From Patescibacteria group bacterium (GTDB lineage: Bacteria; Patescibacteriota; Minisyncoccia; UBA6257; JACRHW01), in the NCBI GenBank assembly GCA_028865725.1, contig JAGWJP010000001.1, positions 55,377 to 119,376 of the forward strand: 64,000 nucleotides of DNA. The letters run 5' to 3'. The stretch's first letter is position 1. Each line of letters starts with the position of its first letter. The translations under genes and the position numbers were made by a program. Below the pieces are notes generated by a model. That model made no database searches. It saw only the letters and a list, made by a program, of their open reading frames with translations, and was not told the origin of the DNA. This document shows positions 9,533-55,347 of the stretch, piece after piece.

Positions 9533-9671
9533 AAATGAAATTAAAAGGGACGGTTCTGGTTGACCCAATTACTTGCTCACGAGGAGTAGCCTACTGGCAG
9601 AACCGCCCCTTTTAGGGCAGTAAGCAATAAAAAAACTCGTGATGTACTATATAACTGGGCCAACGTAATGA

Positions 9672-10265: not shown

Positions 10266-10342
10266 ATTTTTTCTTCAAAATTTACGAAATCATTAGGGTT
10301 TCTCCTGTTTTAATGGATAACCTTTTCCAAACAAACCCATTG

Positions 10343-10708: not shown

Positions 10709-10822
10709 GCCGTGCTTGATAGCATTATAACGGCTTATTGCCTTACCTTCTTCGGTTTTTATACCTCAGAGCTTTGCATTTTCACGATTTGCTTCTATTT
10801 GTTTTTGTGTAGCCATATTTGA

Positions 10823-12742
10823 TTAAAACCCTAATTCATTAGCGTTTATTTCCTTGCTATCGGGCATAATGGGTTCTGAACTCTGGGAACGACCAAATGT
10901 CTCGATAGTATCACCATTTTCTTCACTTTTTGTTTCTTGTTTTTCTTGTTCCGTATATATAGTGGGAACAAGGGAACAAGAATATTGGAATGGGTCTCCC
11001 TTCTTGCCCGAGCCTGTCCTGCCAATCTTTTGAGCTTTCACAAGTTCCTGTAACGCCCTACGTTTATGCGTGGTACGTCCTTCAACGGCATTATCAATAT
11101 CGACTTGTAACATAGGCTCATTAGATGCTTTCAGAAGCTCTAGGATAGCTTCAGAGACCTTCAATACATCATCCTCTTCCTTCGTTCCACCAAAAACCAC
11201 CATTTTGGTGTCTGGGTCAAAAAGCAATATGCTTGGTTCCATGTCTGTGCCATACCGTTGCTGTGTTTCAATAGTCCTTTTACTGTCAGTACGTTTTAGA
11301 ACAATTGCAGTGTCTACAGAACCGAATATCGCTGTAGAGCCGAGTGCGGTATCTGCTCCATCTCCTCCACCTTTTCTGGCGTGGTGAATACCCATCACGT
11401 GTGCCGAATACGTCCTCGCAAGAGAGAGGAGGGGGTCTAAAGCTTTAATCACTTTCGAATAGTCATTTACATCAGAAACACTCGCAAAACGGAACAGAGT
11501 GTCTACAATCACCAGTATAGGTTTTTTCCGCTCTATTTCGCTTTTAAGCCACTCATTTGCACTATCTGGTAGAGAACCTACATAAACTCCCAAATCTTCG
11601 CTTCCTGTGGCTCCCATGAGCTGGAAATGGCTTCTCACTTCGCTACGCTTCTCTTCAAGGGATACATAAAGAACGGCTCCTTGAATAACTTGACGCCCTA
11701 AAAAGGGCTCACCACGTGCAACTGCAAGGGCTGCTTGTCTCGCCAGGGTTGATTTTCCTACTTTTGGCTTTGCTATCACTATTGAGAACCCTCCCGAGGG
11801 AAGTAGGTTCTCAACCACCCAGCTTATTTCTTCTTCTGACTCTTTCAATAAATCATTGAGTGATGTAAAGCCGAATTTGGGAACAACAATCACGGCTGAA
11901 GAAATAGATGCCAGTACTGCTTCACCCCCATGAAGCACACACAAGTCATTAAAATCAGATGGCGTTTCTTCTCCAATTTTTTCTTCTGGTTCAAAAGAGG
12001 GGAAGGCGAGTCTGGCTCCTATAGCCTCGGCAGCTTCTTTTGCTTTTTGAGAGCCGTTTGTATCAGTATCTCCGCAAATGACCACTTCAATATCGGGATA
12101 CTTTCTCCTTATATCCATTGCTGTTGCTTTGAGGTTGCTTGCAGAGAAGGCTATAGCGACCGCATATCCTGTTGTCTCTGCAATGCTCGCCGCTGTGGCA
12201 AAACCTTCCGCTACGCAGAGAATTTTGTCGGGTTCTCTTATGATGGAATAGCACCCCGCCGTCTTTCCACCTTTAAGGAATTTCTTGTTCCCGTTTTCAT
12301 CTACGAATTGAAGTGAGGAAAGAAATCCTTCTGAAGAATAAAGCGGAAGAATAAGGTTGTTGTTCCAGAAGCGGCTATGATAAGCGGATATCTTCTTTTT
12401 TGTGAGATAGGGAAAATTGGCGGGTGGTTGGGATGCTGATTGCCATATCTTCATGGCATCAGTAGATATTTCGTTTTTTGTTTTCCTCATATCCTCCAGA
12501 AGAAGACTACTTGTATCATCCCCAAAATGTTTGGCGAGGGTCATAAGATTTCCCTTTGCGTCACATTTCTTACAGTGAAAGCGACCCGTCTCTTCTTCAA
12601 AGTAGAGATGGGCTTCATTGTTTTTGCTGTCGTCATCGCAATTACTGAAGATACAACGAGTGATGAGCTCCTTTCCGTTTTTACGGAAGGGGATACCTTT
12701 GCGAGTTAGGTATTCTGTAATAGTAATAGTTTGAAAGGTCAT
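10823..12742 (-). CDS. Bifunctional DNA primase / replicative helicase (zinc finger, Toprim, RepA/DnaB-like P-loop ATPase)
   Basis: CHC2-like zinc finger CIFSNCDDDS...FHCKKCDAKG. Toprim ILCVAEGFATAAS...VVICGDTD. Walker A VIAKPKVGKSTLARQAA. Confidence 0.75.
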   Translation of the reverse strand: MTFQTITITEYLTRKGIPFRKNGKELITRCIFSNCDDDSKNNEAHLYFEEETGRFHCKKCDAKGNLMTLAKHFGDDTSSLLLEDMRKTKNEISTDAMKIWQSASQPPANFPYLTKKKISAYHSRFWNNNLILPLYSSEGFLSSLQFVDENGNKKFLKGGKTAGCYSIIREPDKILCVAEGFATAASIAETTGYAVAIAFSASNLKATAMDIRRKYPDIEVVICGDTDTNGSQKAKEAAEAIGARLAFPSFEPEEKIGEETPSDFNDLCVLHGGEAVLASISSAVIVVPKFGFTSLNDLLKESEEEISWVVENLLPSGGFSIVIAKPKVGKSTLARQAALAVARGEPFLGRQVIQGAVLYVSLEEKRSEVRSHFQLMGATGSEDLGVYVGSLPDSANEWLKSEIERKKPILVIVDTLFRFASVSDVNDYSKVIKALDPLLSLARTYSAHVMGIHHARKGGGDGADTALGSTAIFGSVDTAIVLKRTDSKRTIETQQRYGTDMEPSILLFDPDTKMVVFGGTKEEDDVLKVSEAILELLKASNEPMLQVDIDNAVEGRTTHKRRALQELVKAQKIGRTGSGKKGDPFQYSCSLVPTIYTEQEKQETKSEENGDTIETFGRSQSSEPIMPDSKEINANELGF

Positions 12743-12957
12743 AAATCATTGAGACGTTTTATTAATAAGGGGAGCGTTGCTGTTCTATGTTTTTGTATAA
12801 GTTCATATTCTTCTTTAGTCATTGGCTTGTAGATTGCAGACGTCAATTGCAAAAGCTTGATGCCTTTTTCGTAAGCATCTTCTTTTTCTATTTCAGTTCC
12901 AAAGAGCTCTTTATAAAGTGCTTGGAACCTCTCAATGTCTGCATCTGACAAGACCAT
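12739..12957 (-). CDS. Small hypothetical protein, a paralog of the ORF at 20196-20375
   Basis: 72 aa. Shares FxxxYKExFGxxIxxExAxExxxxLLxxxxAIYKPxxKEE with the 20196-20375 ORF. Confidence 0.4.
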   Translation of the reverse strand: MVLSDADIERFQALYKELFGTEIEKEDAYEKGIKLLQLTSAIYKPMTKEEYELIQKHRTATLPLLIKRLNDL

Positions 12958-12961
12958 ATAC

Positions 12962-13255
12962 CTATCTGCTATAGAGTTTATTTTTCAGGGCTTTTATCGC
13001 ATCGAAGAACGACCTTGCTTTCACCTCTAACCTGTCCGCAAAATAATGGTTTGCGACCTCGTTTATTCTGTCTTCACGACGAAAGATGAAAAGAGCCTTG
13101 TTCGGGTTTTCCTTGTTCACCGACAATAATTCAAACCCCATACATAAGAGTGCGGATGATACTCCCAAATCGTATGTGGTAAAGACCACTGACGAGTCAT
13201 CGAGTGGTATGTATTGATAGTCTTCAGACTCATTACTTCCTGTTTTTTTAGTCAT
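12962..13255 (-). CDS. Small hypothetical protein (island cargo)
   Basis: 97-aa ORF, tightly packed with its neighbours. Confidence 0.35.
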   Translation of the reverse strand: MTKKTGSNESEDYQYIPLDDSSVVFTTYDLGVSSALLCMGFELLSVNKENPNKALFIFRREDRINEVANHYFADRLEVKARSFFDAIKALKNKLYSR

Positions 13256-13394
13256 AATTTTTAATATTGGTTAATTGGTTAAGACGACTTTGTCGCTCTG
13301 GCAAAATAAAAAAGCCAAAGCGTACTCTGCTTTGACTTTATCTTTTACCCTTCCGTGTCGGATATGGAGGTGAGAAAGGTGAACTTTTTATTTC

Positions 13395-15632
13395 CTATTT
13401 CTCAAGCCATATCCAGCCTTTTTCTTGTTTGAAAATCGGGAAAAGTTCGCCCTCACCCACTTTCAGTCTAGAGCGAATTTCTCGTAATGTATCATTGATG
13501 TCTTTTGCTTTTCTAAACTGATATTTTTTAATATTAATTAGTGGATTGCAGTGCTTTTTTATCTCATCAACATGAAAATTCATATTTTTGCTTTTGCGGA
13601 GAATTGTTAAAAAAGCACGAGCTTTTCCCTTAAATTGCCACAGAGCAGTTTTATATTCGGCATCGCCACTCTCTGGATAAAAGTTAAGTTTATTTGCAAT
13701 AATTTTTGAATACCTTGCTTTTTTATCGGGTTTGGAGATACCAAGGAATTGGGTGAGTTGGTTTTTTGGAATCTTACCTTCAAAAGTAAGGTAGTCTCCT
13801 TCAGTTACAACTTGTTCTTTTTTTGATTTTGCGTGCGGTGGTAGTTTTAGATAAATCCTACTTAACTCTCCCGTTATTTCTTGCCCTAAATTTATATTCC
13901 ATTTTGTTATGATGTTTCTACTGTTTATTTCGGCTGGAGATGCTTCAAAAAAGTGATAAAGATTTTTTAATAAAAACAGTCCCATTGTCTGGATTTCTGG
14001 AGATTTTGACTGCAATGCATCATAGACCAAGTCTTTCATTGTTTCTTCTTCTCCTCGAATACCTCTCAAATAGATTACAAAATAATAGTAAATCGCCTGT
14101 TCTGTTTCGGCTTTAGATTTTCTTATTTGTCTCTTTACGTCGTCTGATGTAAAACCTAAATCTATTGAGTCCAAAGATTCTCCACTCACCGCTTTATTCC
14201 AACGCACCATATCCCTTGCGTATGCTTTATAGAAAAATGCTAAAGGTCTTAAAAATTTTGCGTTAGGGTCTGCAACTATTCTGCTAAGTTCCATCTGAAA
14301 TCCATTGTGATTTTTTGCAAACGGTGATGCAGATAGGACTTTCAAAAGCCAGAATTTTGTCCATTCAGTAAGCGAGTTGTCGCAATAGATTTTCCAAATT
14401 TTTTCATATTTAGCGTGTATGAATTTTTTATTGGCTTCATAAAAGTTATCGTCAATATCAGAGAGAAAAAATCCTAAATAGCGACATATCAAAAAGGTTA
14501 GAGATGGTTTTTTCGGTATTAACGCAATCAAATCATCAAGTATCTTTGGATTGCCCCATTTTCCTCCAGCCTTGAGGTAATATCGGAGGCAACTTATTTC
14601 CGCCTTCTTTACATCTCCGCCATTTTTAATTTTTCTTAAAATTGTTGGTAATCGTTTGCTTATTTTTGTTATCTTTTGCTTTGATGTTTCGTTAAGTTCT
14701 CCATATGGATTGTAAAACTTTAGCTCTTCAATTTTTTCGGTATTTTTGAGTTTTTCTAATTTTGTTTTCCCATTAAGTTTTAGATTATATTCTCGAAGAA
14801 ATATTACGATTTGAGCAACAATATTATTTATTTTATCGGCACTTTTCGCCATTATCACAGTGTCATCTGCGTAGCGAAAGTATTCAAAGTCATTATTACT
14901 TTTCAAATCATCAAGAAAAGTGTCCAGTGGATAAAGATAGGCATTGGATAAAACGTGAGAAGCGTTTGCACCCTGCGGGATACCACAAAGAGTAGGGGTT
15001 TCAGACCAATTTTTTAGTTGTTGTTCCAGAGTTTTCAGTAGGCGTTCATCTTGTATTTGAAAGCCTTTCTTAAGAATTTTGAGTAGAGTATCAATGTGGA
15101 TATTTTCATAATAGGTTTGTATATCAAACTCTGCTCTCCAGACAAATTTCTTTGCAAAAGCATCTACTTGTTTATCACAGAATTCTGCCCATTGGTTTTT
15201 GTATGGTTTCAGATACTTTTCCTTTCCAAGCACTCTGTTACCTAAACACGAACTGTACATTTTTTTATCTATCGTATTGCCTAAAATTAATGGATTAAGA
15301 AGTGCCTGAAAAACTATTCTGTCCACTACTGAAAAAACACAAATAGGACGAACACCCATATTATCTTTATCGGCATAAATATAATCAGCTTTGTCGGGTT
15401 GATATTTTTCTTGTCGGAGATATTCTTGCAGTGTCTCAAAGAATTCGTCTCCGAGTTGTGTTACAGCACTTATAGCTGGTCTCCATATTGGGTCTAAGGG
15501 TAGAGTGCTCTCATCTGTTTCTTCCTTTAGATATACAAATGCTTTTTTGAGGTTTTCCTTTGAGGAAAAGCTTTCAAACAGGTTCATCAATGTAGGGTAA
15601 TGGTAATTTAATATCGCACCCCAATGTAGCAA
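13395..15632 (-). CDS. Standalone reverse transcriptase with a ~450-aa C-terminal extension (Abi/DRT-like, putative anti-phage)
   Basis: RT motifs GVRPICVFSVVDRIVFQALL, FDIQTYYENI, GIPQGANASHVLSNAYL and YADD (FRYADDTVIM). No adjacent TR/VR repeat was found. Confidence 0.7.
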   Translation of the reverse strand: MLHWGAILNYHYPTLMNLFESFSSKENLKKAFVYLKEETDESTLPLDPIWRPAISAVTQLGDEFFETLQEYLRQEKYQPDKADYIYADKDNMGVRPICVFSVVDRIVFQALLNPLILGNTIDKKMYSSCLGNRVLGKEKYLKPYKNQWAEFCDKQVDAFAKKFVWRAEFDIQTYYENIHIDTLLKILKKGFQIQDERLLKTLEQQLKNWSETPTLCGIPQGANASHVLSNAYLYPLDTFLDDLKSNNDFEYFRYADDTVIMAKSADKINNIVAQIVIFLREYNLKLNGKTKLEKLKNTEKIEELKFYNPYGELNETSKQKITKISKRLPTILRKIKNGGDVKKAEISCLRYYLKAGGKWGNPKILDDLIALIPKKPSLTFLICRYLGFFLSDIDDNFYEANKKFIHAKYEKIWKIYCDNSLTEWTKFWLLKVLSASPFAKNHNGFQMELSRIVADPNAKFLRPLAFFYKAYARDMVRWNKAVSGESLDSIDLGFTSDDVKRQIRKSKAETEQAIYYYFVIYLRGIRGEEETMKDLVYDALQSKSPEIQTMGLFLLKNLYHFFEASPAEINSRNIITKWNINLGQEITGELSRIYLKLPPHAKSKKEQVVTEGDYLTFEGKIPKNQLTQFLGISKPDKKARYSKIIANKLNFYPESGDAEYKTALWQFKGKARAFLTILRKSKNMNFHVDEIKKHCNPLINIKKYQFRKAKDINDTLREIRSRLKVGEGELFPIFKQEKGWIWLEK

Positions 15633-15874
15633 ATTTAAGTCTTGTTCTCAACCCCTTAAAAATCAAGGGTTTCCATTTTTTTGAAATTTGTTTATTATAA
15701 GAACGTCTACCCAAAACGAATACTCCTGAAGAGCTGTCCATTTTCCCCAATTACGGGCAGAAATGGGCAGCTCGAGTTCCATAATTGGGGACTCCTTTGG
15801 GGGTTTTTCGTTATGGGTAGACAGCTCGGGCTGTCCCTTTTTATTTTCAGCTCGAGACATAGTTCTGTCTACCT

Positions 15875-17581
15875 ATGTCTCAAACACAAGAAGAAAAAAA
15901 ATTTCAGGCTCGCATTTCAGAGCTTGAAACCGAAATTAAAAAACTAAAGAAAAGAAAAAAATACGGACTTGTTTGGGAGGAAAAACCAGAACAGGTTGTT
16001 GAATCATGTAAGGAAAAATTACCTGTTTTTTCAGAGAACAAAGATAGAGAAATTAAAGCAGCAAAAAATGAACCCACGAATATTCTTATTGAAGGAGACA
16101 ACTATGATAGTCTCTCTGTTTTGAATTATTCTCACGAAAAGAATATTGACCTAATTTATATAGACCCTCCCTACAATACTGGCAACAAAGATTTTATATA
16201 CAATGACCGTTACATCGATTTAGTAGACACCTACAGGCACAGCAAGTGGCTTTCTTTTATGGAGAAACGGTTAAGGTTGGCAAGAAATTTATTAAAGGAG
16301 ACGGGAGTTGTTTTTATTAGTATCGATGATAATGAGTTTGCACGGTTAAAGTTGTTATGTGATGAAATTTTTGGAGAAAAGAATTTTGTAACTACGATTA
16401 CAATTCAGGTTAATAAGGGTGGGAGGGATTATTTGCCATTGGCTGTAACGCACGAGTATATTCTTTGTTATTTTAAAGGGAATGCTGGACAGTTAAATGA
16501 GCTATCAAAGGAGATTGATTTTGAACTCGAAGACACAGGGGGTAAATATGAATTAAGGGAATTAAGAAATCGTAATCCGAAATTTAGTAAAAAAAATCGA
16601 CCCAATCTTTACTATCCGATTTATGTCAGTCCAATGAGTAAAGATGGAAACGAACAATGCATCGTGTCTTTAGAAAAATCAAAAGATTTTAACGTTGAAG
16701 TCTTTCCTCTTAATAGTAAGGGTGAGGAAGGTTGCTGGCGTTGGGGTCGAGAACTTACGCTAAAAAATTTAGCGAGCAGTACAGATCTATCTAATATAGT
16801 CGGCAGGCAACGTAGAGATGGTGGATGGAATATTTATGAAAAATCTAGAAAGGCTACCACAAAAGCGAAATCAATCTGGGATGAAACTGGCGTAAGGACA
16901 GAACAAGGAACAATTGATTTGCGAGAACTCGGAATGGCGAACCTTTTCGACCACCCAAAGCCAGTTTATCTCATAAAGAAAATGGTCAGATTGGCTACTA
17001 AAGAAGATTCTGTAATTTTAGATTTTATGGCTGGTTCAGGTACTACGGGTCAAGCAGTTTTAGAACTTAATAAAGAAGATGGTGGTACTCGTAAATTTAT
17101 CTTATGTACTAATAACGAAAATAAAATTGCTGAAGAAGTATGCTATTTACGCATTAAAAAAGTAATCGAAGGATACAAGAATCCTAAAAACGAGGAAATT
17201 GCTGGCTTGGGTGGCAACCTCAAATACTATAAAACCGACTTTGTCGACGCAGAACCAACTGACAAAAACAAAAAGATGCTCGTTGATAAATCGACCGAAA
17301 TGCTTTGTCTCAAAGAAGATTGTTTTGATGTAGTCAAAAAAGGTAGCGAATATAAGCTTTTCAAAAATAGTAAGGATAAATATCTCGGTATCATCTACGA
17401 CGATACAGGCATTGAACCATTCAAAAGTGAAATAAAAAAACTGAACAAGAAAGCTACTGTTTATGTTTTTTCACTAGACGAGAGTGCCCGAGAAGAGGAA
17501 TTTGAGAATATTGCGAACCTTGTTGAACCAAAACCAATACCCGCCGCTATTCTTAACGTGTATAAACGCATATTCAAATGA
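15875..17581 (+). CDS. mod: Type III restriction-modification methyltransferase (Mod, beta-class N6A/N4C MTase)
   Basis: Motif IV DLIYIDPPYNTGNKDF comes before motif I ILDFMAGSGTTGQAV. The stop overlaps the res start (ATGA). Confidence 0.85.
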   Translation: MSQTQEEKKFQARISELETEIKKLKKRKKYGLVWEEKPEQVVESCKEKLPVFSENKDREIKAAKNEPTNILIEGDNYDSLSVLNYSHEKNIDLIYIDPPYNTGNKDFIYNDRYIDLVDTYRHSKWLSFMEKRLRLARNLLKETGVVFISIDDNEFARLKLLCDEIFGEKNFVTTITIQVNKGGRDYLPLAVTHEYILCYFKGNAGQLNELSKEIDFELEDTGGKYELRELRNRNPKFSKKNRPNLYYPIYVSPMSKDGNEQCIVSLEKSKDFNVEVFPLNSKGEEGCWRWGRELTLKNLASSTDLSNIVGRQRRDGGWNIYEKSRKATTKAKSIWDETGVRTEQGTIDLRELGMANLFDHPKPVYLIKKMVRLATKEDSVILDFMAGSGTTGQAVLELNKEDGGTRKFILCTNNENKIAEEVCYLRIKKVIEGYKNPKNEEIAGLGGNLKYYKTDFVDAEPTDKNKKMLVDKSTEMLCLKEDCFDVVKKGSEYKLFKNSKDKYLGIIYDDTGIEPFKSEIKKLNKKATVYVFSLDESAREEEFENIANLVEPKPIPAAILNVYKRIFK

Positions 17582-19758
17582 TTACTCTCAAGGATTATCA
17601 AAAACAGGCAGTAGAAAACCTGCATAGGAAAATAGAGAATTCATTACGTTCTCCAGAGAATGAAGTGGTTGTTTTTCAGGCTCCTACTGGTTCTGGAAAG
17701 ACGGTGATGGTATCCGAGCTCCTAAAAGAACTCATAAATAACAGGCAAGATGACAAAAAACTTTCTTTTATTTGGATTTCGGTGAGGATGCTCCATGAAC
17801 AGAGTAAGGAACGCCTAGAAAAATACTATGAGGACGATAGAAGTCTCAAATGTTCCTATTTTGAAGACTTGGAAGACAGAAAAATAGGAGAAAATGAAAT
17901 CCTGTTCGTTAATTGGCATAGCATAAACAAGAAAGACAAAAACACAATAGTTAAAGAAAACGAACAAGAATTTTATCTCGAAAAAGTCCTAGAAAATACC
18001 AGAGAAGATGGGCGAGATATTGTTTTAATTATAGACGAAAGCCACCACACGGCTGGTTCCCAGAAATCGAGGGAACTTATAGAAACCATAAGCCCAAAGG
18101 TGACTCTAGAGGTCTCCGCTACACCGCATTTGGAAGAGAATGCTGCTGAAAAAGAAAAAGTCCACCTTTCGGACGTTAAAGCGGAAGAAATGATTAAGTC
18201 AGAAATATCCGTAAATCCAGAATTTCTTGATATCAAAGTAGGTTCCAAAAGCTCTGATGAAATTGTAATTGAAGAAGCTCTCAAAAAACGGGATGAGCTT
18301 GCGAAGATGTACAAGAAAGAAGGGGTAAACATTAACCCCCTAATGCTTGTACAGCTTCCCGATGCAAAGGCTGGTCTTGCCGACAAAAAAGAGGAGATAT
18401 TAACAATACTTCACAAACAGGGCGTAGAGGACGAGAACATCGCTATTTGGCTATCGGAAGATAAATCTGATACTTTGCCGAACATAGAGAAAAACGATAA
18501 TGATGTGAACGTCCTTATATTCAAACAAGCCATCGCACTTGGATGGGACTGCCCGAGAGCTTCTATCTTGGTTATTTTCAGAGAGTCAAAGAGCTTCACG
18601 TTTACCATCCAAACCATTGGTAGAATAATGCGGATGCCTGAACTGAAATATTATACGAAGGAGCCAGAACTAAATAAAGGGTTTGTATTTACCAACCTAG
18701 CCAATATTGAGGTTACCGAAGATTATGCAAAAGACTATGTAACTCAATATGAAGCAAAACGAGATAAATTATATAAAAACATATCACTACCCTCTATTTA
18801 CTTAAAACGCCAAAGAGAAAGAACCCGTTTATCTGGCGAATTTATTAAATTCTTTCTTAAAATTGCGAAGGAAAAGGATTTAGCAAAAGAAATAAATCCG
18901 AAACCAAAGAAAATAATAAGCCCCATAATTGCTGATGGAAGGATAATAGATATAGATAAATCGGGGGAAATAGAGCACAGGGGTACTCTAGAAATTGGGT
19001 TGAGTGAGAAAGAGCTTGGAAAGAAATTTGATAAATTTATTGCTCAAAATTGCACTCCTTATGCTCCTGCTGATTCTAGCGACAGAATGAAAACAGCTTT
19101 ATATCAGTTCTTTAATCAGGAGTTCAAAATACCGAAATACGAACCCAAGGTTCAACGGATTGTGCTAGGTGAAGAAAACGTGCAGTTATTTGTAAACGTT
19201 ATCAATTTGGCAAAGGAAAAATATAAGAAAGATATAGTTGAAAAGCTTGCCGAGAAACGTGAGCTTATTGAAACAAAGGATTGGGAAGTACCTCTCGTTA
19301 CCAGCTACAACAGCAGGTATCAGATGGAAGAACAACCCTTATCCGTTATGAAACCGTTTTATACGGCAAAACAAAGCGAGCCAGAACGCTTATTTATTGA
19401 ATTTCTCAACAAATCAAAGAACGTAAAGTGGTGGTACAAAAATGGCGAGGCGGAAATCAAGTATTTTGCGGTTTTGCGAGATGACGACCTCGCATTCTAT
19501 CCCGACTTCATTATTCAGCTCAAAGATGGAAGTATCGCTATATTTGATACCAAATCGGGAAGAACGGCAGAAACAAGTGATGCAGCACCCAGAGCCGAAG
19601 CACTACAACGATATATCAAAAAACAAAATAAATCAGGCAAAAATCTATTCGGTGGTATCGCTATTTATGTGAATGGCACATGGCGATACAACGACAAAGA
19701 GAAATATGAGTATAATTCCGATGATTTGTCGGATTGGAAAGTGTTAACTGAATTATGA
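17578..19758 (+). CDS. res: Type III restriction enzyme Res subunit (SF2 helicase plus endonuclease)
   Basis: Walker A FQAPTGSGKTVMVSEL. DEAH-like LIIDESHH. 726 aa. Translationally coupled to mod. Confidence 0.85.
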   Translation: MITLKDYQKQAVENLHRKIENSLRSPENEVVVFQAPTGSGKTVMVSELLKELINNRQDDKKLSFIWISVRMLHEQSKERLEKYYEDDRSLKCSYFEDLEDRKIGENEILFVNWHSINKKDKNTIVKENEQEFYLEKVLENTREDGRDIVLIIDESHHTAGSQKSRELIETISPKVTLEVSATPHLEENAAEKEKVHLSDVKAEEMIKSEISVNPEFLDIKVGSKSSDEIVIEEALKKRDELAKMYKKEGVNINPLMLVQLPDAKAGLADKKEEILTILHKQGVEDENIAIWLSEDKSDTLPNIEKNDNDVNVLIFKQAIALGWDCPRASILVIFRESKSFTFTIQTIGRIMRMPELKYYTKEPELNKGFVFTNLANIEVTEDYAKDYVTQYEAKRDKLYKNISLPSIYLKRQRERTRLSGEFIKFFLKIAKEKDLAKEINPKPKKIISPIIADGRIIDIDKSGEIEHRGTLEIGLSEKELGKKFDKFIAQNCTPYAPADSSDRMKTALYQFFNQEFKIPKYEPKVQRIVLGEENVQLFVNVINLAKEKYKKDIVEKLAEKRELIETKDWEVPLVTSYNSRYQMEEQPLSVMKPFYTAKQSEPERLFIEFLNKSKNVKWWYKNGEAEIKYFAVLRDDDLAFYPDFIIQLKDGSIAIFDTKSGRTAETSDAAPRAEALQRYIKKQNKSGKNLFGGIAIYVNGTWRYNDKEKYEYNSDDLSDWKVLTEL

Positions 19759-20030
19759 ACAAAAAGACACTAAAATATACAATTTCCGAATTTATTTGGA
19801 ACCAATATTTCAAAGAACAATCGGAATTGAAATACTGCATGGATATTCTTGATAAAAAACTTGAATGCCTATCAAAATATGTGGGGAGGAAGCTAACAGA
19901 AAGAGAACAGATGGCTATTTTGGATATTGTAGACGAAAATACCGCCAAAGGTGATGACGGGAATTATCTTGGTTCGCTTTTTCCTTTTGAGTTTGCGTGG
20001 AAGATTTATGAGACAGAAAAAGAATACTAA
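19755..20030 (+). CDS. Hypothetical small protein
   Basis: 91-aa ORF overlapping the res stop (ATGA). Confidence 0.4.
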   Translation: MNKKTLKYTISEFIWNQYFKEQSELKYCMDILDKKLECLSKYVGRKLTEREQMAILDIVDENTAKGDDGNYLGSLFPFEFAWKIYETEKEY

Positions 20031-20194
20031 TGCTTTCTATTGAAAAGTGTCGTGAGATATTAGGCGATGAATATGCTGGGCTTTCTGATGAAAGGCTGGC
20101 TCAAATTAGGGATGAACTATCTGAACTTGCTCGGATAGCTCTCGATGCCTACATTAAGAAACAGAAACAAGGTAAGATTGCTAACAATAGTTAA
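20030..20194 (+). CDS. Hypothetical small protein (54 aa)
   Basis: ATG overlaps the upstream TAA. Reads MLSIEKCREILGDEYAGLSDERLAQIRDEL... Below the ORF-track length cutoff. Confidence 0.3.
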   Translation: MLSIEKCREILGDEYAGLSDERLAQIRDELSELARIALDAYIKKQKQGKIANNS

Positions 20195-20195
20195 A

Positions 20196-20375
20196 ATGAT
20201 TTCTGAAGAGGCATTTGAAGAATACAAAAAGATATATAAAGAAGAATTTGGTGCCGATATTACTGATGAAGAGGCAATGGAACAAGCCACAAGTCTTTTG
20301 ACGATGATGAACGCTATCTACAGACCCGTCAAAAAGGAGTGGCTTGATGATTTGGAAAAACGTGATAATGTATAA
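20196..20375 (+). CDS. Small hypothetical protein, a paralog of the ORF at 12739-12957
   Basis: MISEEAFEEYKKIYKEEFGADITDEEAMEQATSLLTMMNAIYRPVKKEW. Confidence 0.4.
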   Translation: MISEEAFEEYKKIYKEEFGADITDEEAMEQATSLLTMMNAIYRPVKKEWLDDLEKRDNV

Positions 20376-20559
20376 GATATTATTTTCTTTTCTTTGAACC
20401 AGATATATAATCAAGATATGATACATCCTAAAAACACAAATAATAAGAAAACAGCCCACTCGAAGGGGTTTAATTGGGATAAGTTTAATTTGGACAGATT
20501 TTTTAAGGATGCAGAAAGGGTGGGGAAAATAATTAGAAGAAAAGGAGGATATTCTGAAA

Positions 20560-21111
20560 ATGACAGACGAAACATTTTGGAAAGATAAATCGGTTATTCT
20601 TGATACAAATATCCTTTCGCAGTTAGCAAAGGAAAAACGGGCGGATAAGTTCCGTCCCGTTTTTGATTTTTTTAAAAACAATAATATCGACCCACTTTTG
20701 ATTGATGCAACTTATTTTGAACTTTTAGGATTTACGGCAAATAAAAGCGATTTCGATTTTCTTGCTGAATGGGTTAAACAGTTTCCAATATTGCCGACCA
20801 AATCGGAGGATGTTGAATTAGCGTCCCTACTCTCGTCTTATTATAAAAACCTAGACCCCGAACTTAACAAAAAACAGATATCATACTGTGATTGTTTGCA
20901 CGCAGCACAACTGATTAAATTTGGTGGACGGGTATTTATTGTAACTACTGATATACATGATTATCCCATTTCTATTTTTGATATAAAAAGTATTCAAATT
21001 ATTGAAGATAATAAAAAAGCTGTGCTAGTTGGATTTATCACTTTTAATAAAGAGAAACTAGAAAAAGCAAGAATAAATTTTGAGAAATCAATTCAGGAGA
21101 AACGAGGATAG
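20560..21111 (+). CDS. PIN-domain protein (putative nuclease / toxin-like)
   Basis: Acidic residues arranged as in PIN domains: ILDTNIL, FELLG, YCDCLHAA, VTTDIHDY. Confidence 0.55.
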   Translation: MTDETFWKDKSVILDTNILSQLAKEKRADKFRPVFDFFKNNNIDPLLIDATYFELLGFTANKSDFDFLAEWVKQFPILPTKSEDVELASLLSSYYKNLDPELNKKQISYCDCLHAAQLIKFGGRVFIVTTDIHDYPISIFDIKSIQIIEDNKKAVLVGFITFNKEKLEKARINFEKSIQEKRG

Positions 21112-21177
21112 ATACTATTAGGTTTTTTTCAATCAATAAACCAAACCTGACGTTGTTGGTGACAATTATAAAAAGTA

Positions 21178-21206
21178 TTGACTTTTCTTACAAAATACTA
21201 TATAAC
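21178..21206 (+). promoter_or_regulatory. Candidate sigma-70 promoter for the DGR-1 target gene
   Basis: TTGACT, 17 nt, TATAAC. Followed by a ~135-nt leader with a long imperfect stem before the RBS AAAGGAGG. Confidence 0.4.
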
Positions 21207-21343
21207 ATAATTATCCTGTTCTTTAACATGGTAAAATTCAGTATGAGACGAGCGTTTTGGATGCCAAATAGAGGTGGTTTTCAGACCGCTCTTCTCATCC
21301 GAGAGAGCCAGGAGCAATCCTGATTTCATAAAGGAGGTGTGCG

Positions 21344-22129
21344 ATGTCTAACATCGTAAGCCCAAACAAACTGTCAGTACACAAGCAGCACGAGGTGCTT
21401 CTCAAGCTCGAAGCAGCGGGTCTCAACGACACCCTTGCCCAGAAGCTCGTCGACTCCAAAGACAATGACCTTGCTACGAGAGTGGTACGGCTCATCGAAA
21501 ACGGAGGCATCGAGCCGAGCACGAGTCAGAAGATGGCACGTAGCATCATGGGCAAGAACTTCTTTGGTGTGGAAGAGGCAGTGAAGCACTTCGGTGTCAA
21601 TCCCACGAAGGCTCAGCTCGCTCTTCTCGCCGAGATTCCGTTTACCAAAGCGGAGCTCAAAGAAAAGAAGAACTCCCATATCCTCGTCGCCGTCTTCCCG
21701 CTCTCCATCCTCGACATTCGTGGCAAGATGACCACCAAGGTTTTCTACAACCAGGACTGGTACAACAACCAGGACTGGTACAACAACCAGGACTTCGCCA
21801 AGAATCGTGGAGAAGTGGGATGGTATCTCATTCGCAAGACTCCCGTGGAGAATTCGACGAACAAGACGTGGCAAGAGCAGCAGGCTCTTCTCTCCGACAA
21901 GGATGAGACGCCGACTGCTCGGGTCATGGTCTATGCTATCGTCGGTCATTACCTGGCAACGGGTGAGCGACTTTTTGAGAGAATCTATGTACGCTGTTCG
22001 GACCTCGGTTCGGACGGCCGCCGTGTCAGCGTCGGTTACTTCGCTGCTCGTGGGCTGGGCGTCAGCGACTGCTGGGGTGATGACCGTTTCTCCAGCGTCG
22101 GTCTCGCCTCCGCTCGGAAGTCCAACTGA
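21344..22129 (+). CDS. DGR-1 target (variable) protein. Its C-terminal ~40 aa are encoded by the variable repeat.
   Basis: 261 aa. The C-terminus ...GSDGRRVSVGYFAARGLGVSDCWGDDRFSSVGLASAR is homologous to TR1 with adenine-specific differences. Shares NQDWYN and other segments with the DGR-2 targets. Confidence 0.8.
   Translation: MSNIVSPNKLSVHKQHEVLLKLEAAGLNDTLAQKLVDSKDNDLATRVVRLIENGGIEPSTSQKMARSIMGKNFFGVEEAVKHFGVNPTKAQLALLAEIPFTKAELKEKKNSHILVAVFPLSILDIRGKMTTKVFYNQDWYNNQDWYNNQDFAKNRGEVGWYLIRKTPVENSTNKTWQEQQALLSDKDETPTARVMVYAIVGHYLATGERLFERIYVRCSDLGSDGRRVSVGYFAARGLGVSDCWGDDRFSSVGLASARKSN
21749..21794 (+). repeat. Tandem 18-bp repeat (2.5 units) inside the DGR-1 target
   Basis: aaccaggactggtacaac repeated. 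Encodes NQDWYN-NQDWYN-NQD. Confidence 0.8.
22002..22123 (+). repeat. DGR-1 variable repeat (VR1)
   Basis: ~122 bp matching TR1 (22490-22611). Every mismatch is at a TR adenine (e.g. TR AAC to VR CGC/AGC/TAC). GC-rich 3' end atcggtctcgcctccgctcgg is identical (IMH-like). Confidence 0.8.
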
Positions 22130-22489
22130 ACCTAGAACCTTGAAGCCTTGAGCTTCTTCGACCCCTTGAGTTTCCCGCAACGATTTGCGTGAGACTCTTG
22201 GGGTTTTTTCTTTTTGAATTCTTTTTTGATACAATATCCTTGTTCTGCTTTTGAAGGTGAGGCTACGGTTTCATCTCGCAGATGTCTCTTCTTTGAGACT
22301 TCGCCAGAATAGCAGTTGTCTACGGATACCGCTAGCGTGCGAATAAAGATGGAGATTGGACTTCTTGCTCATCTTTGGTGGAGATGGTTTCACAACTTGC
22401 TCCCAAATAAAATACAGAAAGGAGAGGATATAGACTCCCGTGAGTAGTAACCCTCGATTTTCAGTGACAGAGAGGAAGATGGGCAAATT

Positions 22490-22611
22490 TCTCGATTCGG
22501 ACGGCAACCGTGTCAACGTCGGTAACTTCGATGCTAATGGGCTGAACGTCAACAACTACTGGGATGATAACCGTAACTCCAACATCGGTCTCGCCTCCGC
22601 TCGGCACTCTT
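22490..22611 (+). repeat. DGR-1 template repeat (TR1), rich in AAC codons
   Basis: gattcggacggcaaccgtgtcaacgtcggtaacttcgatgctaatgggctgaacgtcaacaactactgggatgataaccgtaactccaacatcggtctcgcctccgctcgg. Followed by the hairpin aacacccc-tttc-ggggtgtt. Confidence 0.8.
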
Positions 22612-22645
22612 TTCTCTATCACAACAACACCCCTTTCGGGGTGTT

Positions 22646-22996
22646 TTAGTAACTTTTTGTTGCTTTAATCCAACCCCCGAGCATTTTTCCAATTTCATCA
22701 ATATGTTCCTGAAGTATGATATATTTTTTAGCATCAATCGCTTTTACCTCTTTTGATAATCGCACCAATACCCGCAAGAGATTTAATTTCACGCTTGTTT
22801 TTTCAAGTATTGGGAGTTTCTCCATTTTTGTACTCTGGCTTGCGGCGAGAAGAAATTCTACAATATCTAACATTATTGTTTCGCACCGTTGCCATAGAAT
22901 ATAACGGTCTTGTTTTGCAACTGTGTTCCGATAGCTATACAGTGTTTTATACAGCTCATACGTTTTCTTAAAAATTGGGATATCGAATTCGTCCAT
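22646..22996 (-). CDS. avd: Avd-like accessory variability determinant of DGR-1 (four-helix-bundle family)
   Basis: 116 aa and helical. Divergent from the RT with a 4-nt gap. Paralog of the C-terminal part of the 61345-61719 ORF (DIPIFKKTY...IGKMLGGWI). Confidence 0.7.
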   Translation of the reverse strand: MDEFDIPIFKKTYELYKTLYSYRNTVAKQDRYILWQRCETIMLDIVEFLLAASQSTKMEKLPILEKTSVKLNLLRVLVRLSKEVKAIDAKKYIILQEHIDEIGKMLGGWIKATKSY

Positions 22997-23000
22997 AATT

Positions 23001-24047
23001 ATGAAAGTTTATAAGAATGTTTTTGAAGAAATAATTTCGTTAGAAAATTTGTTTGCTGCATGGGATACCTTCAAGAGCAACAAACAGAAGAAACGAGACG
23101 TACAAGCATTTGAATGGAATCTTGAACATAACATCTTCGAACTCCATAGAGCTTTGAAGTCAGGGCGTTATCGCCATGGTTCCTACACCTCGTTCTTTAT
23201 TCAAGACCCGAAGCAACGTCATATTCATAAGGCATTGGTACAAGATAGGATATTGCATCACGCTCTCTTTACGGTATTGAATCCAATCTTTGAATCCACG
23301 TTTATTGCTCATTCGTTTTCGTGCCGTGTAAACAAGGGAACTCACAAAGGCATAGAAGTTCTCGAAGGAATGATACGAAAAATAACCCACAATGGGGTTC
23401 ATATGGCGTTTGCTTTGAAATGTGATGTCCAAAAGTTCTTTGGGTCGGTTGACCATCAAACTCTGAAGTCTATCCTTGCTCGAAAAATCAAAGATGTTCA
23501 GGCACTGGACTTGTGTAGCAAGATTATCGACAGTTTTGCCACAAACCCGTTGGGGGGGGGGCGTTATAGGAGGGGTTTGCCGATTGGTAACCTCACCTCG
23601 CAATTGTTTGCCAACATCTATCTGAATGAATTTGACCAGTTTATTAAGCATGATTTGAAAGTGAAAAATTACGTACGGTATACCGATGATTTTGTCATTG
23701 TGCACCAGAGTGAGGAAGAACTCAAGAACCTTTTACCGAAGATACGAGAATTTTTGAGCACGAGATTAAAACTTACCTTGCATCCCCGAAAAGTTATCTT
23801 GAATAAAACATCCCAAGGAGTCGATTTCTTGGGGTATGTACTTTTGCTTCATCACAGAGCGTTGCGTACGAAAACAAGGAGGCGGATAGTGAGAAAATTC
23901 AAATTGCGGATGGGGGAGTATAGAAAGGGAGTTATTACAAGGCAGACCCTTGAACAGTCGTTGCAATCCTATCTCGGTGTTCTTTCTCACGCAGATAATT
24001 ATGTGATTTCCGAAGGATTAAAGAATATGCTTTGGTTTTGGAAATAG
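23001..24047 (+). CDS. DGR-1 reverse transcriptase
   Basis: 348 aa. Motif GLPIGNLTSQLFANIYLNEFD carries the DGR-specific I/LGxxxSQ. Also YTDDFVIV (YxDD). Confidence 0.85.
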   Translation: MKVYKNVFEEIISLENLFAAWDTFKSNKQKKRDVQAFEWNLEHNIFELHRALKSGRYRHGSYTSFFIQDPKQRHIHKALVQDRILHHALFTVLNPIFESTFIAHSFSCRVNKGTHKGIEVLEGMIRKITHNGVHMAFALKCDVQKFFGSVDHQTLKSILARKIKDVQALDLCSKIIDSFATNPLGGGRYRRGLPIGNLTSQLFANIYLNEFDQFIKHDLKVKNYVRYTDDFVIVHQSEEELKNLLPKIREFLSTRLKLTLHPRKVILNKTSQGVDFLGYVLLLHHRALRTKTRRRIVRKFKLRMGEYRKGVITRQTLEQSLQSYLGVLSHADNYVISEGLKNMLWFWK

Positions 24048-24049
24048 AG

Positions 24050-24172
24050 TAATCAATAAACCAAATCCGCCCCCGTGTCCGAAAAGCTAGGAATATACAC
24101 TGTAGCATCATTTCTACGCTCAAAAATAGTTCTAACATCCCACACTACGGCACCCACTTTACAAAATAGCAT
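24050..24172. repeat. ~125 bp intergenic repeat, copy A (family shared with 26882-27008 and the 21127 stub)
   Basis: Begins aatcaataaaccaaatc. About 80% identical to copy B over about 120 nt. Confidence 0.5.
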
Positions 24173-24371
24173 TAAATTCCAACTATTCGTTCTATCTTTC
24201 CAAGAAAATCGCCACAAAGGCGCACCTCATTCGAGTAGGATTATTCAACAATGACCACTCTGCGTATGCGGTAAATGGATCGCAGATTGAAGATGAACAA
24301 GTGGTTCATGTTTCTGCAAATGCGCCAAAACCCATGCAGATGGGAAATGGCCAGATGTAACGCGTGGCGCA

Positions 24372-24866
24372 CTAGCGCACCACAGCCGTTTCGTAGACAA
24401 TCGCGTAGGTTGAACTTGGGGTAAGCTCTGTATCGGCAAGCGTGTTTACCGGATTGCCGTCTTTGTAGATCGTGAGCGCGTGCGATGTGTCAAGGGGATG
24501 TCCTAAGAAATGGGAGCTATCAAACTTTTGCCGCCAGGTTCCGAAAAAGTCTCCCAGCGTATAGATGATGTGGTCATTTGATTGGATTATCACTGCGCCG
24601 GAAGCGTCGTTCGTGGAAATTACGCGGAGGCATTTTCCTGGGTCATGTCCGATAGAAGGAGAGAGGGGAAGCGGGGCACCATTCAGTGTTATGATAATGT
24701 GTACGGTAAAGCGTTGAAGAATGGGCTGAGTGGGATCAACGCAAGGCACCGCAGGAAGCCCGAGGTAATTCGCGCTATTCTGCGCTGCAACAAGAAGCCA
24801 TGATGTAGTTCCGGCAAGCGCAATAACAATGATGATGGAAACAAAAAATGATACGAATGTTCTCAT
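24372..24866 (-). CDS. Hypothetical secreted protein
   Basis: 164 aa with an N-terminal hydrophobic signal/anchor: MRTFVSFFVSIIIVIALAGTTSWLLVAAQ. Confidence 0.5.
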   Translation of the reverse strand: MRTFVSFFVSIIIVIALAGTTSWLLVAAQNSANYLGLPAVPCVDPTQPILQRFTVHIIITLNGAPLPLSPSIGHDPGKCLRVISTNDASGAVIIQSNDHIIYTLGDFFGTWRQKFDSSHFLGHPLDTSHALTIYKDGNPVNTLADTELTPSSTYAIVYETAVVR

Positions 24867-26881: not shown

Positions 26882-27008
26882 TGCGAATCAATAAACCAAA
26901 TCTATCGTTGTGTCTGCAAACGTAGGAACATACACTGTAGCGTCGTTTCTCTGCTCAAACACAATTTTAACATCCTCTACGACGGCACCCAAAGATTTGA
27001 CAAATAGC
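26882..27008. repeat. ~125 bp intergenic repeat, copy B
   Basis: aatcaataaaccaaatctatcgttgtgtctgcaaacgtaggaacatacactgtagcgtcgtttct... Aligns with 24050-24172. Confidence 0.5.
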
Positions 27009-55346: not shown

Positions 55347-55347
55347 G

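What the first reader, a model, noticed from the sequence alone, without database searches (positions are those of the whole stretch)
21344..24047. Second, single-target DGR (DGR-1)
The target C-terminus (22002-22123) matches TR1 (22490-22611) with differences only at TR adenines. An Avd-like gene and an LGxxxSQ reverse transcriptase lie immediately downstream.

The RT and Avd proteins are paralogs of those in DGR-2, at about 55% identity. The target shares N-terminal segments with the DGR-2 targets, including NQDWYN.

Two DGRs of one family in a single 64 kb stretch suggests duplication and divergence of the whole cassette.
Basis: partly seen in the sequence, partly recalled or inferred. Interest (0 to 1): 0.7.

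Follow-up and report, generated by a model that had tools for sequence, protein, structure and literature searches.

The report
Patescibacterial DGR with switchable reverse transcriptase
This is a real, complete, ordinary-for-its-lineage diversity-generating retroelement from a Patescibacteria (CPR) genome. Comparing it with about 160 relatives also shows a large structured RNA in front of the template and slippery repeat tracts inside the reverse-transcriptase gene that probably turn the mutator on and off.

Summary
VR (22004-22117) and TR (22491-22604) match over 114 nt. All 19 differences sit at TR adenines (P~1e-15), and all 27 TR adenines are at codon positions 1 or 2.

The parts are a 261-aa target with a predicted C-type-lectin-fold C-terminus, an Avd gene on the minus strand, and a DGR-type RT (IGNLTSQ, YTDD; best solved relative is Bordetella phage bRT). 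This is the TR-(avd)-RT "B3" layout already reported for 90% of CPR DGRs, so it is a new member of a known kind.

RT1 and RT2 are 48% identical and fall in separate clades. Each has relatives of 83-84% identity in other genomes, so a recent in-genome duplication is not supported.

Two features are shared across the family and were not found in Rfam or in the papers searched:
- A ~240-nt covariation-supported RNA leader lies directly 5' of TR (57 pairs, 43 compensatory). DGR-2 has it too.
- Simple-sequence repeats concentrate in the RT genes: 42 of 46 long tracts in 936 kb (p~8e-31). They fall at two hot spots. RT1 carries an in-frame G10 at one of them, and six orthologues are frame-shifted there.

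This pattern suggests phase-variable RT expression, which is not shown here.

The parts
21131..21145 (+). Left copy of the exact 15-mer AATCAATAAACCAAA that brackets the cassette. The other copies start at 24051 and 26886.
   Evidence: three exact copies, all on the + strand; absent from the 79 related loci held at that call.
21178..21206 (+). Promoter-like site of the target gene: TTGACT (21178-21183), 17-nt spacer, TATAAC (21201-21206).
   Evidence: Read from the sequence; it was not listed by the consensus promoter scan. Homology with the closest relative L002 begins exactly at 21178. Function is inferred.
21243..21322 (+). Structured 5' UTR of the target mRNA: a long hairpin at 21243-21298 and a small hairpin CAGGA-GCAA-TCCTG at 21309-21322. 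The Shine-Dalgarno sequence follows at 21332-21338.
   Evidence: 21 pairs, 13 with compensatory changes, in 21 loci. The small hairpin is read from the alignment only. No Rfam match.
21344..22129 (+). Target (variable protein) gene, 261 aa. It has a helical N-terminal part and a C-terminal C-type-lectin / FGE-sulfatase-like fold. It also carries an 18-nt tandem duplication (21749-21766 and 21767-21784) encoding NQDWYN twice.
22004..22117 (+). Variable repeat (VR), ending 12 nt before the stop codon. Its last 20 nt (22098-22117, TCGGTCTCGCCTCCGCTCGG) are A-free, GC-rich and identical to the TR end (22585-22604). This is the IMH-like boundary element.
22161..22215 (+). GC-rich hairpin followed by a T-run, 44 nt downstream of VR. 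It is the intrinsic terminator of the target gene and may correspond to the inverted repeat found after IMH in other DGRs.
   Evidence: dG -19.4 kcal/mol for the folded 141-nt stretch 22095-22235, z -2.8. The position is conserved in relatives.
22230..22235 (+). -10-like box TACAAT, conserved in position just after the target terminator. It is the inferred promoter of the leader-TR RNA.
   Evidence: conserved TATA(A/T)A-like column. No transcript data.
22246..22486 (+). Structured leader RNA directly 5' of TR. Helices: H1 22255-22276; H2 22300-22343; long-range H3 22365-22376 with 22475-22486; H4 22380-22403; H5 22417-22462 with an inner hairpin 22434-22445.
   Evidence: 57 pairs, 43 with compensatory changes, 96.8% of cells paired against 40-52% for slid controls, 0/500 shuffles. 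Covariance model R1 finds it next to TR in 43 loci and in DGR-2. nhmmer of the 5' half. No Rfam match.
22491..22604 (+). Template repeat (TR): 27 adenines, all at codon positions 1 or 2, and 9 AAC codons.
22627..22644 (+). Conserved hairpin (ACACCCC-TTTC-GGGGTGT) between TR and the avd stop codon. It is a candidate Avd-binding stem-loop and/or a two-way terminator.
   Evidence: 9 pairs, 6 compensatory, 92% paired against 37-56% for slid controls, 0/500 shuffles. Compare the Avd-binding stem-loops just 3' of TR in 207 of 278 DGRs (bioRxiv 10.1101/2023.10.23.563531).
22646..22996 (-). avd accessory gene (116 aa), inverted relative to TR and RT.
   Evidence: Pfam bAvd 1.7e-17. NCBIfam NF033474 DivGenRetAVD scores 85.5 bits against a cutoff of 80. 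51% identical to Avd2.
23001..24047 (+). DGR reverse transcriptase (348 aa): IGNLTSQ at 23583-23603, YTDD at 23679-23690.
   Evidence: RVT_1 2.7e-20. Best solved relative is 8ub7, the bRT of the Bordetella phage DGR, E 4.5e-44 against 2.5e-23 for a group II intron RT. Motif coordinates.
23552..23561 (+). G10 homopolymer inside RT (codons 185-187, GGG), in frame. It lies in a loop that is an insertion relative to bRT, 8 codons before motif 4. It is a candidate slipped-strand ON/OFF switch.
   Evidence: Only one other G/C run of 8 or more exists in the 64 kb. Orthologous RTs carry G(n) or (GA)n tracts at the same residue, and six of them are frame-shifted there.
24051..24065 (+). Right copy of the 15-mer repeat, 3 nt after the RT stop codon. 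Homology with L002 ends at 24054.

Best explanation
DGR-1 is a complete, probably functional diversity-generating retroelement of the Patescibacteria (CPR) type. It has the known TR-(avd)-RT ("B3") layout and forms a discrete 2.9-kb module (21178-24054).

**Proposed mechanism.**
1. An RNA of about 410 nt is transcribed from a -10-like box at 22230. It contains a ~240-nt structured leader, the 114-nt TR and a 3' hairpin (inferred).
2. RT1 together with Avd1 reverse-transcribes TR and misincorporates opposite adenines (inferred from the family).
3. The cDNA replaces VR at the 3' end of the target gene. The A-free GC-rich 20-mer shared by VR and TR sets the 3' limit (inferred).
4. This recodes up to 18 codons (those holding TR adenines) on the predicted C-type-lectin-fold surface of a 261-aa protein whose ligand is unknown.

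**What is shown:** the anatomy, the A-only mismatch pattern, the protein family assignments, the covariation of the RNA helices, and the conservation of the whole arrangement in about 40 other genomes.

**Proposed switch.** The G10 tract inside RT1 is in frame here. It lies at a family-wide hot spot for simple repeats, so I propose that tract-length slippage switches RT, and hence mutagenesis, on and off. That step is inferred from comparative data only.
For: **TR/VR.** 19 of 19 mismatches at TR adenines and 87 of 87 other positions identical, P 1e-15. All adenines at codon positions 1 or 2.

**Proteins.**
- RT: IGNLTSQ and YTDD motifs; nearest solved structure is the DGR bRT.
- Avd scores above the NCBIfam DGR-Avd cutoff.
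- Target C-terminal fold matches FGE/EgtB, TvpA, Mtd and TaqVP.

**Conservation.** The same cassette with A-specific mismatches is present in 38 other loci. The architecture is described as B3, 90% of CPR DGRs, in PMC5758913. A CPR-restricted RT clade is described in PMC8144416.

**RNA.** Leader: 57 pairs, 43 compensatory; found beside TR in 43 loci and in DGR-2. 3' hairpin.

**Simple repeats.** 42 of 46 long tracts in 935,629 nt lie in RT +/-40 nt, which is 14.6% of the sequence (p 8e-31). They form two hot spots. Six frame-shifted alleles at the RT1 hot spot keep both halves as open frames.
Against: - There are no reads or transcripts, so ongoing homing, RNA ends and tract-length heterogeneity are untested.
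- The closest relative L002 also has G10 but is frame-shifted by a 1-nt difference just after the tract. The tract itself therefore has not been seen to vary between these two.
- Homopolymers are error-prone in assemblies.
- An upstream/downstream duplex like the cPRT Stop of the Bordetella phage was not supported by covariation. How cDNA is primed here is unknown.
- The hairpin after VR looks like an ordinary terminator.
Confidence: 0.9

Rival explanations
1. The repeats inside the RT genes are neutral low-complexity insertions in a tolerant loop, or assembly errors, or sites of transcriptional or ribosomal slippage. They are not a DNA-level phase switch. Frame-shifted copies are simply dead DGRs.
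For: - The RT1 tract lies in a segment that is an insertion relative to bRT, so length changes may be tolerated.
- Several alleles are in frame and encode (ER)n loops.
- No within-population length data exist.
- G-runs are error-prone in sequencing.
Against: - 42 of 46 long tracts fall in 14.6% of the sequence, at only two positions of the gene. They come from more than 40 independent contigs of different projects and use two repeat chemistries, G(n) and (GA)n.
- Frame-shifted alleles keep both halves open for 175-336 codons, unlike decayed pseudogenes.
- Dinucleotide tracts are not typical sites of transcriptional slippage (own knowledge).
Confidence: 0.3
2. DGR-1 and DGR-2 arose by duplication of one cassette within this genome, followed by divergence.
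For: Both have the same modular core and homologous leader RNA. The targets share 31-34% identity. Both lie within 40 kb.
Against: - RT1 and RT2 are 47-48% identical, yet each has relatives of 83-84% identity elsewhere.
- They fall in separate clades of a neighbour-joining tree. The tree has no bootstrap support.
- The two target types co-occur under a single RT in other genomes (L004, L007, L016, L018, L024, L049, L056).
- Each DGR here lies beside its own serine recombinase and tRNA gene.
Confidence: 0.1
3. DGR-1 is an inactive relic. The VR differences were fixed long ago and the element no longer homes.
For: No population data exist. Surveys class part of all DGRs as inactive (PMC8144416).
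Against: - All ORFs are intact and catalytic YTDD is present.
- There are zero non-A differences in 87 positions, so there has been no drift since the last homing event.
- The RT is in frame across the G10 tract.
- All RNA helices are intact.
Confidence: 0.12
4. The conserved ~240 nt upstream of TR is not part of the DGR RNA. It is instead a separate small RNA, a 3' UTR of the target gene, or a small protein gene.
For: RNA ends are not mapped. It follows the target gene in most loci.
Against: - It stays attached to TR and co-oriented with it when the core is inverted relative to its targets (L014 and DGR-2; in L047 leader and TR lie together but RT and avd are on the other strand). It is absent from the 36 loci that lack a nearby TR and RT.
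- Helix H3 ends 4 nt before TR.
- No conserved ORF on either strand.
- A terminator separates it from the target gene.
Confidence: 0.08

Closest known systems
CPR/Patescibacteria DGRs of architecture B3, TR-(avd)-RT (Wu et al. 2018, PMC5758913); RT clade 2 of Roux et al. 2021 (PMC8144416)
   Same: - Gene order and inverted avd.
- Small target protein without a recognisable Pfam or transmembrane domain.
- Chromosomal, aquatic Patescibacteria host.
- A-specific TR/VR differences.
   Different: Nothing in the anatomy differs, so DGR-1 is a member. The structured 5' leader, the back-to-back avd/RT start codons and the repeats in the RT gene are not mentioned in those surveys. Paul et al. 2017 could not be read.
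Bordetella phage BPP-1 DGR (mtd-avd-TR-brt) and its bRT-Avd-RNA complex (PDB 8ub7 series; bioRxiv 10.1101/2023.10.23.563531)
   Same: - RT is the closest solved relative (E 4.5e-44).
- Avd is present.
- AAC-rich TR, VR at the C-terminus of a C-type-lectin-fold protein, GC-rich IMH-like end, and a stem-loop just 3' of TR.
   Different: - In BPP-1 all genes are on one strand, and the essential RNA elements lie mainly in the 140-nt spacer 3' of TR, with only about 20 nt needed 5'.
- Here only about 45 nt with one hairpin separate TR from the antisense avd, and a ~240-nt five-helix domain lies 5' of TR.
- A cPRT-Stop-like duplex between upstream and downstream sequence was not supported.
- The host is cellular, not a phage tail-fibre system.
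Treponema denticola TvpA and Thermus TaqVP variable proteins
   Different: No lipoprotein or FGE-sulfatase Pfam signature was found. The N-terminal helical domain has no match, and sequence identity is 12-19%.
Contingency loci driven by simple-sequence repeats (for example Neisseria and Campylobacter poly-G genes, phase-variable type III mod genes)
   Same: Poly-G or dinucleotide tracts lie inside an ORF at a fixed position. Tract length differs among orthologues and sets the reading frame. Both halves of frame-shifted alleles stay intact.
   Different: The gene being switched is itself a targeted mutator, the DGR RT. The host is an uncultured Patescibacterium. Switching within a population has not been observed.
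Rfam RT-1 to RT-19 motifs (Weinberg et al. 2017, PMC5737381); RT-10 lies between TR and brt in BPP-1
   Same: Structured RNAs next to RT genes, proposed to act in DGRs or retrons.
   Different: None matches 21100-24400 even at E<=1. The leader here lies 5' of TR, not between TR and RT.

Membership tests
Diversity-generating retroelement (DGR) | Template/variable repeat pair whose differences are confined to template adenines | tested here: met
   114 nt, 19 of 19 mismatches at TR adenines, P 1.1e-15.
Diversity-generating retroelement (DGR) | RT of the DGR clade with the (I/L/V)GxxxSQ motif 4 and a catalytic YxDD | tested here: met
   IGNLTSQ at residues 195-201 and YTDD at 227-230. Best PDB match is the DGR bRT 8ub7, E 4.5e-44. 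It scores below the cutoffs for group II intron RT, Drt and retron RT in NCBIfam.
Diversity-generating retroelement (DGR) | VR at the 3' end of a target ORF, within a variation-tolerant C-type-lectin or Ig fold | tested here: met
Diversity-generating retroelement (DGR) | Accessory variability determinant (Avd) | tested here: met
   NF033474 scores 85.5 bits against a cutoff of 80. Pfam bAvd 1.7e-17.
Diversity-generating retroelement (DGR) | IMH at the VR end, distinguishable from IMH* at the TR end | tested here: inconclusive
   A GC-rich, A-free 20-mer is identical in VR and TR, and the sequences diverge immediately after it. The first base after it (C in TR against A in VR here) is among the recurrent differences seen in relatives, read from the alignments.
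Diversity-generating retroelement (DGR) | GC-rich inverted repeat downstream of IMH | tested here: inconclusive
   A hairpin lies at 22161-22204, 44 nt after VR, followed by a T-run, so it looks like a terminator. This feature is present in only 34% of DGRs according to PMC5758913.
Diversity-generating retroelement (DGR) | Ongoing mutagenic retrohoming (VR heterogeneity in a population, cDNA production) | not testable with these tools
   No reads are available. The target's exact sequence is not in the protein collection, so the two assemblies carrying RT1 could not be compared.
CPR DGR architecture B3 (Wu et al. 2018) | Core order TR-(avd)-RT with avd on the opposite strand | tested here: met
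   The same order is found in the 38 related loci used for the alignments. Definition read.
Phase-variable contingency locus driven by simple-sequence repeats | Long homopolymer or dinucleotide tract inside the ORF, or in its 5' end | tested here: met
   G10 at 23552-23561, in frame. Enrichment of such tracts in RT genes of the family, p 8e-31.
Phase-variable contingency locus driven by simple-sequence repeats | Tract length differs among alleles and sets the reading frame ON or OFF | tested here: inconclusive
   This was seen among orthologues from different genomes: 6 OFF and 9 ON at this site, and most alleles out of frame at the 5' site. It was not seen between alleles of one lineage. L002 and the window both have G10.
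Phase-variable contingency locus driven by simple-sequence repeats | Reversible length heterogeneity within one population | not testable with these tools
   Needs raw reads of the source metagenome.
Any Rfam RNA family (including RT-1 to RT-19) | Covariance-model match at or near the gathering score | tested here: not met
   Only tRNAs pass in the window. At E<=1 in 21100-24400 there is one chance microRNA hit.

The most novel reading that the evidence does not exclude
Patescibacterial DGRs carry a built-in stochastic switch. Poly-G or (GA)n tracts sit at two fixed positions of the RT gene, and RT1's G10 at 23552-23561 is one of them. Slipped-strand mispairing at these tracts would turn the reverse transcriptase, and so targeted hypermutation, on and off.

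In addition, these elements use a ~240-nt structured RNA domain 5' of TR, absent from Rfam. This contrasts with the long 3' spacer of the Bordetella phage paradigm.
Probability: 0.5. Interest if true: 0.7.

Novelty: new member of a known kind. Interest (0 to 1): 0.5.

Why it matters
As a DGR the element is routine. CPR genomes are known to be rich in DGRs, and this layout is their standard one.

Its value lies in what the comparison with about 160 relatives exposed. How DGR mutagenesis is regulated is poorly understood (my own knowledge). The papers searched here describe the cDNA mechanism in one phage element and do not mention repeat tracts in RT genes.

A repeat-driven on/off switch in the RT would explain how small-genome symbionts limit the cost of hypermutation. 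It is directly testable with existing metagenomic reads.

The covariation-defined leader gives a concrete RNA to test in reconstitution. It also gives a model for annotating TRs in CPR genomes, where the RT is currently named a "group II intron RT domain protein".

Tried and rejected
- **Stop-duplex analogue.** I tested for a duplex between the purine-rich stretch 5' of TR and the pyrimidine-rich stretch 3' of TR, as an analogue of the cPRT Stop. Matched pairs were only slightly more stable than mismatched ones (perm p 0.02, with some mis-anchored rows). The fixed-register pair count equalled the shuffles (61.6% against 62.0%). Rejected: the purine stretch instead pairs with 22365-22376 (helix H3).
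- **Rfam.** Searches at gathering score and at E<=1 found nothing relevant.
- **15-mer elements.** The ~106-nt repeats at 24051 and 26886 showed no fold better than shuffles on either strand.
- **Integration sites.** I looked for att-like repeats of the flanking tRNA genes and found none.
- **Target 5' UTR.** RNAalifold on all 36 target 5' UTRs gave no pairs because the alignment was poor. A motif-bearing subset gave the hairpin.
- **Inaccessible sources.** Paul et al. 2017 (PMC5436926) is not held. An exact look-up of the target protein failed, so VRs of the two assemblies carrying RT1 could not be compared.
- **Promoter scan.** The consensus promoter/terminator scan found no more sites than in shuffles and missed the sites I read by eye.
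Full report
**Source and context.** The window is part of contig JAGWUQ010000002.1 (203,618 bp) of assembly GCA_028868355.1. NCBI names the organism a Patescibacteria group bacterium and calls RT1 a [quoted passage not shown]. The DGR is therefore not annotated as such.

**Observation.**
- The repeat core is VR 22004-22117 against TR 22491-22604, 114 nt.
- There are 19 differences, all at TR adenines: 13 to G, 3 to C and 3 to T. The other 87 positions are identical.
- With 27 adenines in the TR, the chance that all 19 differences fall on adenines is 1.1e-15.
- All 27 adenines occupy codon positions 1 or 2, and AAC occurs nine times.
- Beyond 22117/22604 the two sequences simply diverge.
- TR1 has no other partner in the window apart from a 60-nt, 80% match to TR2.

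**Proteins.**
- The target (21344-22129, 261 aa) has no Pfam or NCBIfam match. It has more than 1100 homologues at E<=1e-3, typically about 65% identical and almost all from Patescibacteria MAGs. Variability is confined to the positions templated by TR adenines.
- Avd (22646-22996) is on the minus strand. It passes the NCBIfam DGR-Avd model (85.5 bits, cutoff 80) and Pfam bAvd.
- RT (23001-24047) has IGNLTSQ and YTDD. Its best solved relative is the Bordetella phage bRT (8ub7, E 4.5e-44), far ahead of group II intron RTs.

**Comparison with known elements.** A scan of one genome per species returned 79 loci encoding the target family.
- 38 of them have the same cassette: target, about 360 nt, TR of 108-132 nt, about 40-75 nt, inverted avd, then RT. 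All show A-specific TR/VR differences.
- Wu et al. 2018 call this core TR-(avd)-RT "architecture B3" and state that it accounts for 90% of CPR DGRs (PMC5758913).
- Roux et al. 2021 describe a CPR-restricted RT clade whose targets lack recognisable domains (PMC8144416).
- DGR-1 is therefore a standard member of a known kind.

**RT1 versus RT2.** They are 48% identical, and the Avds 51%.
- RT1 is 84% identical to the RT of L002 and 61-63% to at least ten others.
- RT2 has relatives at 83%, 82% and 73%, and more than 100 listed proteins are closer to it than RT1 is.
- A neighbour-joining tree without bootstrap support puts the two in separate clades.
- A recent duplication in this genome is not supported.
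- In other genomes both target types sit under one RT (L004, L007, L016 and others).

**Cassette limits.** The closest relative L002 (84% nucleotide identity) is homologous to the window from 21178 to 24054 only. That span runs from the -35 box of the target promoter to just past the RT stop codon. In this genome the module is bracketed by exact 15-mers (AATCAATAAACCAAA) at 21131 and 24051. A third copy lies at 26886. The 15-mer is absent from the 79 related loci held at that call.

**RNA.** Three elements were examined.
- *3' hairpin.* A hairpin at 22627-22644 lies between TR and the avd stop codon. It is conserved with covariation: 9 pairs, 6 compensatory, 92% paired against 37-56% for slid controls. 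It fits the "Avd-binding stem-loop just downstream of TR" reported for 207 of 278 DGRs (bioRxiv 10.1101/2023.10.23.563531). It could also be a two-way terminator.
- *5' leader.* The whole stretch between the target's terminator (22161-22215) and TR is conserved. It folds into five helical elements with 57 pairs, 43 of which have compensatory changes. 96.8% of cells are paired against 40-52% for slid controls, and 0/500 shuffles reach this. One 12-bp long-range helix (22365-22376 with 22475-22486) ends 4 nt before TR.
- *Distribution of the leader.* A covariance model of the core finds it beside TR in 43 loci. These include loci not used to build the model, an inverted cassette, and DGR-2 (61068-61176, 55 bits). 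nhmmer finds the 5' half in DGR-2 as well.
- *Alternatives checked.* No conserved ORF explains the conservation, and Rfam has no match. [quoted passage not shown]

**Head-to-head genes.** avd and RT start codons are 0-18 nt apart (most often 2-5) in nearly all of these loci; the window has CATAATTATG. Their 5' ends must therefore overlap in antisense, or RT is translated from read-through of the TR RNA. This is inference only.

**Repeats in the RT gene.** RT1 contains a G10 run (23552-23561, codons 185-187), in frame. It lies in a segment that is an insertion relative to bRT, eight codons before motif 4.
- The window has only one other G/C run of 8 or more.
- At the same residue, other family members carry G10 (L002), G7, or (GA)n of 7-25 units.
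- Six of them (L002, L008, L016, L020, L044, L045) are frame-shifted across or just after the tract, while both halves remain open reading frames of normal length.
- Nine including the window are in frame, some encoding (ER)n loops.
- A further scan of metagenome contigs revealed a second hot spot. Poly-G of 8-11 lies at the 5' end of RT in about 27 loci, usually out of frame with a conserved upstream start.
- Over all 159 related loci (935,629 nt), 42 of 46 long tracts lie in RT +/-40 nt, which is 14.6% of the sequence (binomial p 8e-31).
- This is the signature of contingency loci. No paper in the searchable library links DGR RTs with such repeats.
- Switching within a population has not been shown, and homopolymer assembly errors remain a caveat for individual alleles.

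**Verdict.** The finding is correct and the element is an ordinary CPR-type DGR, probably active: it has intact genes and no non-A drift between TR and VR. The duplication idea is not supported. The leader RNA and the repeat tracts are features of the whole family that deserve follow-up.

Noticed in passing
window 21131-21145, 24051-24065, 26886-26900 (and 24051-24156 ~ 26886-26991): Three exact, same-strand copies of AATCAATAAACCAAA lie about 2.9 kb apart, each just after the stop codon of a + strand gene. The last two extend to ~106 nt at 78% identity. They bracket the DGR-1 module and the next block (a 164-aa ORF, a DsbD-like gene and a thioredoxin-like gene). They are absent from the 79 related loci held and show no special fold. 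They may be recombination or insertion scars.
   Followed up: partly
window 21243-21322: The target mRNA has a conserved structured 5' UTR: a 21-pair hairpin with 13 compensatory pairs in 21 loci, then a small hairpin with a GCAA loop here. It is not in Rfam and may be a cis-regulator of the variable protein.
   Followed up: partly
window 7872-21111: DGR-1 sits at the end of a low-GC (34-38%) island. The island holds tRNA-His overlapped by a large serine recombinase (7916-9568, minus), a Toprim/AAA_25 protein (10823-12742), a 745-aa RT best matching defence-type RT_UG19 (13395-15632, minus; padloc 1e-49), a type III restriction-modification pair (15875-19758) and a PIN-domain protein (20560-21111).
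   Followed up: partly
window 15894-15901: An A8 run lies 19 nt into the type III methyltransferase gene. Type III mod genes are classic phase-variable genes (own knowledge). The tract is short and was not examined further.
   Followed up: no
window 52833-62757: In DGR-2 the three targets (minus strand) are interleaved with a VWA-domain protein (55348-57333) and a MoxR-like AAA_5 ATPase (58259-59938). The array is flanked by a second large serine recombinase (53055-54503) next to tRNA-Arg. avd2 probably starts at 61719 and overlaps the RT2 start (61705) head-to-head.
   Followed up: partly
window 21749-21784: An exact 18-nt tandem duplication (AACCAGGACTGGTACAAC twice) adds a second NQDWYN to the target. 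The 27 homologues aligned have one copy.
   Followed up: yes
window VR1 22004-22117; VR2s at 60042-60164, 57408-57530, 54516-54638: Substitutions at template adenines are strongly biased towards G: 13/19 in DGR-1 and 11/11, 8/12 and 10/17 in the DGR-2 VRs. Some related loci show the same bias and others do not. The cause could be the polymerase or selection.
   Followed up: partly
window 22994-23003; loci L002-L080: avd and RT start codons lie back to back (window palindrome CATAATTATG). The gap is 0-18 nt in nearly all of about 40 loci, which leaves no intergenic promoter or ribosome-binding site. On the opposite strand, just upstream of the avd start, the conserved first RT codons (ATGAAAATTTATAAA) read as a TATAAA box.
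   Followed up: partly
loci L005, L006, L013, L015, L019, L022, L023, L025 and others: About 35 of 79 genomes encode the target family with no RT, Avd, TR or leader within 4 kb. These are either remote targets or non-diversified homologues.
   Followed up: no
L017 1794-3204: A second, distant RT (34% identity) and Avd (28%) lie just upstream of the target in L017. Neighbouring DGRs of different lineages therefore also occur in other Patescibacteria.
   Followed up: no
L002, L018, L022, L035, L039, L071; L064: Several MAGs carrying this Patescibacteria-type cassette are labelled "uncultured Gammaproteobacteria", and one is labelled Methanothrix. These are probably binning or classification errors in the records.
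   Followed up: no
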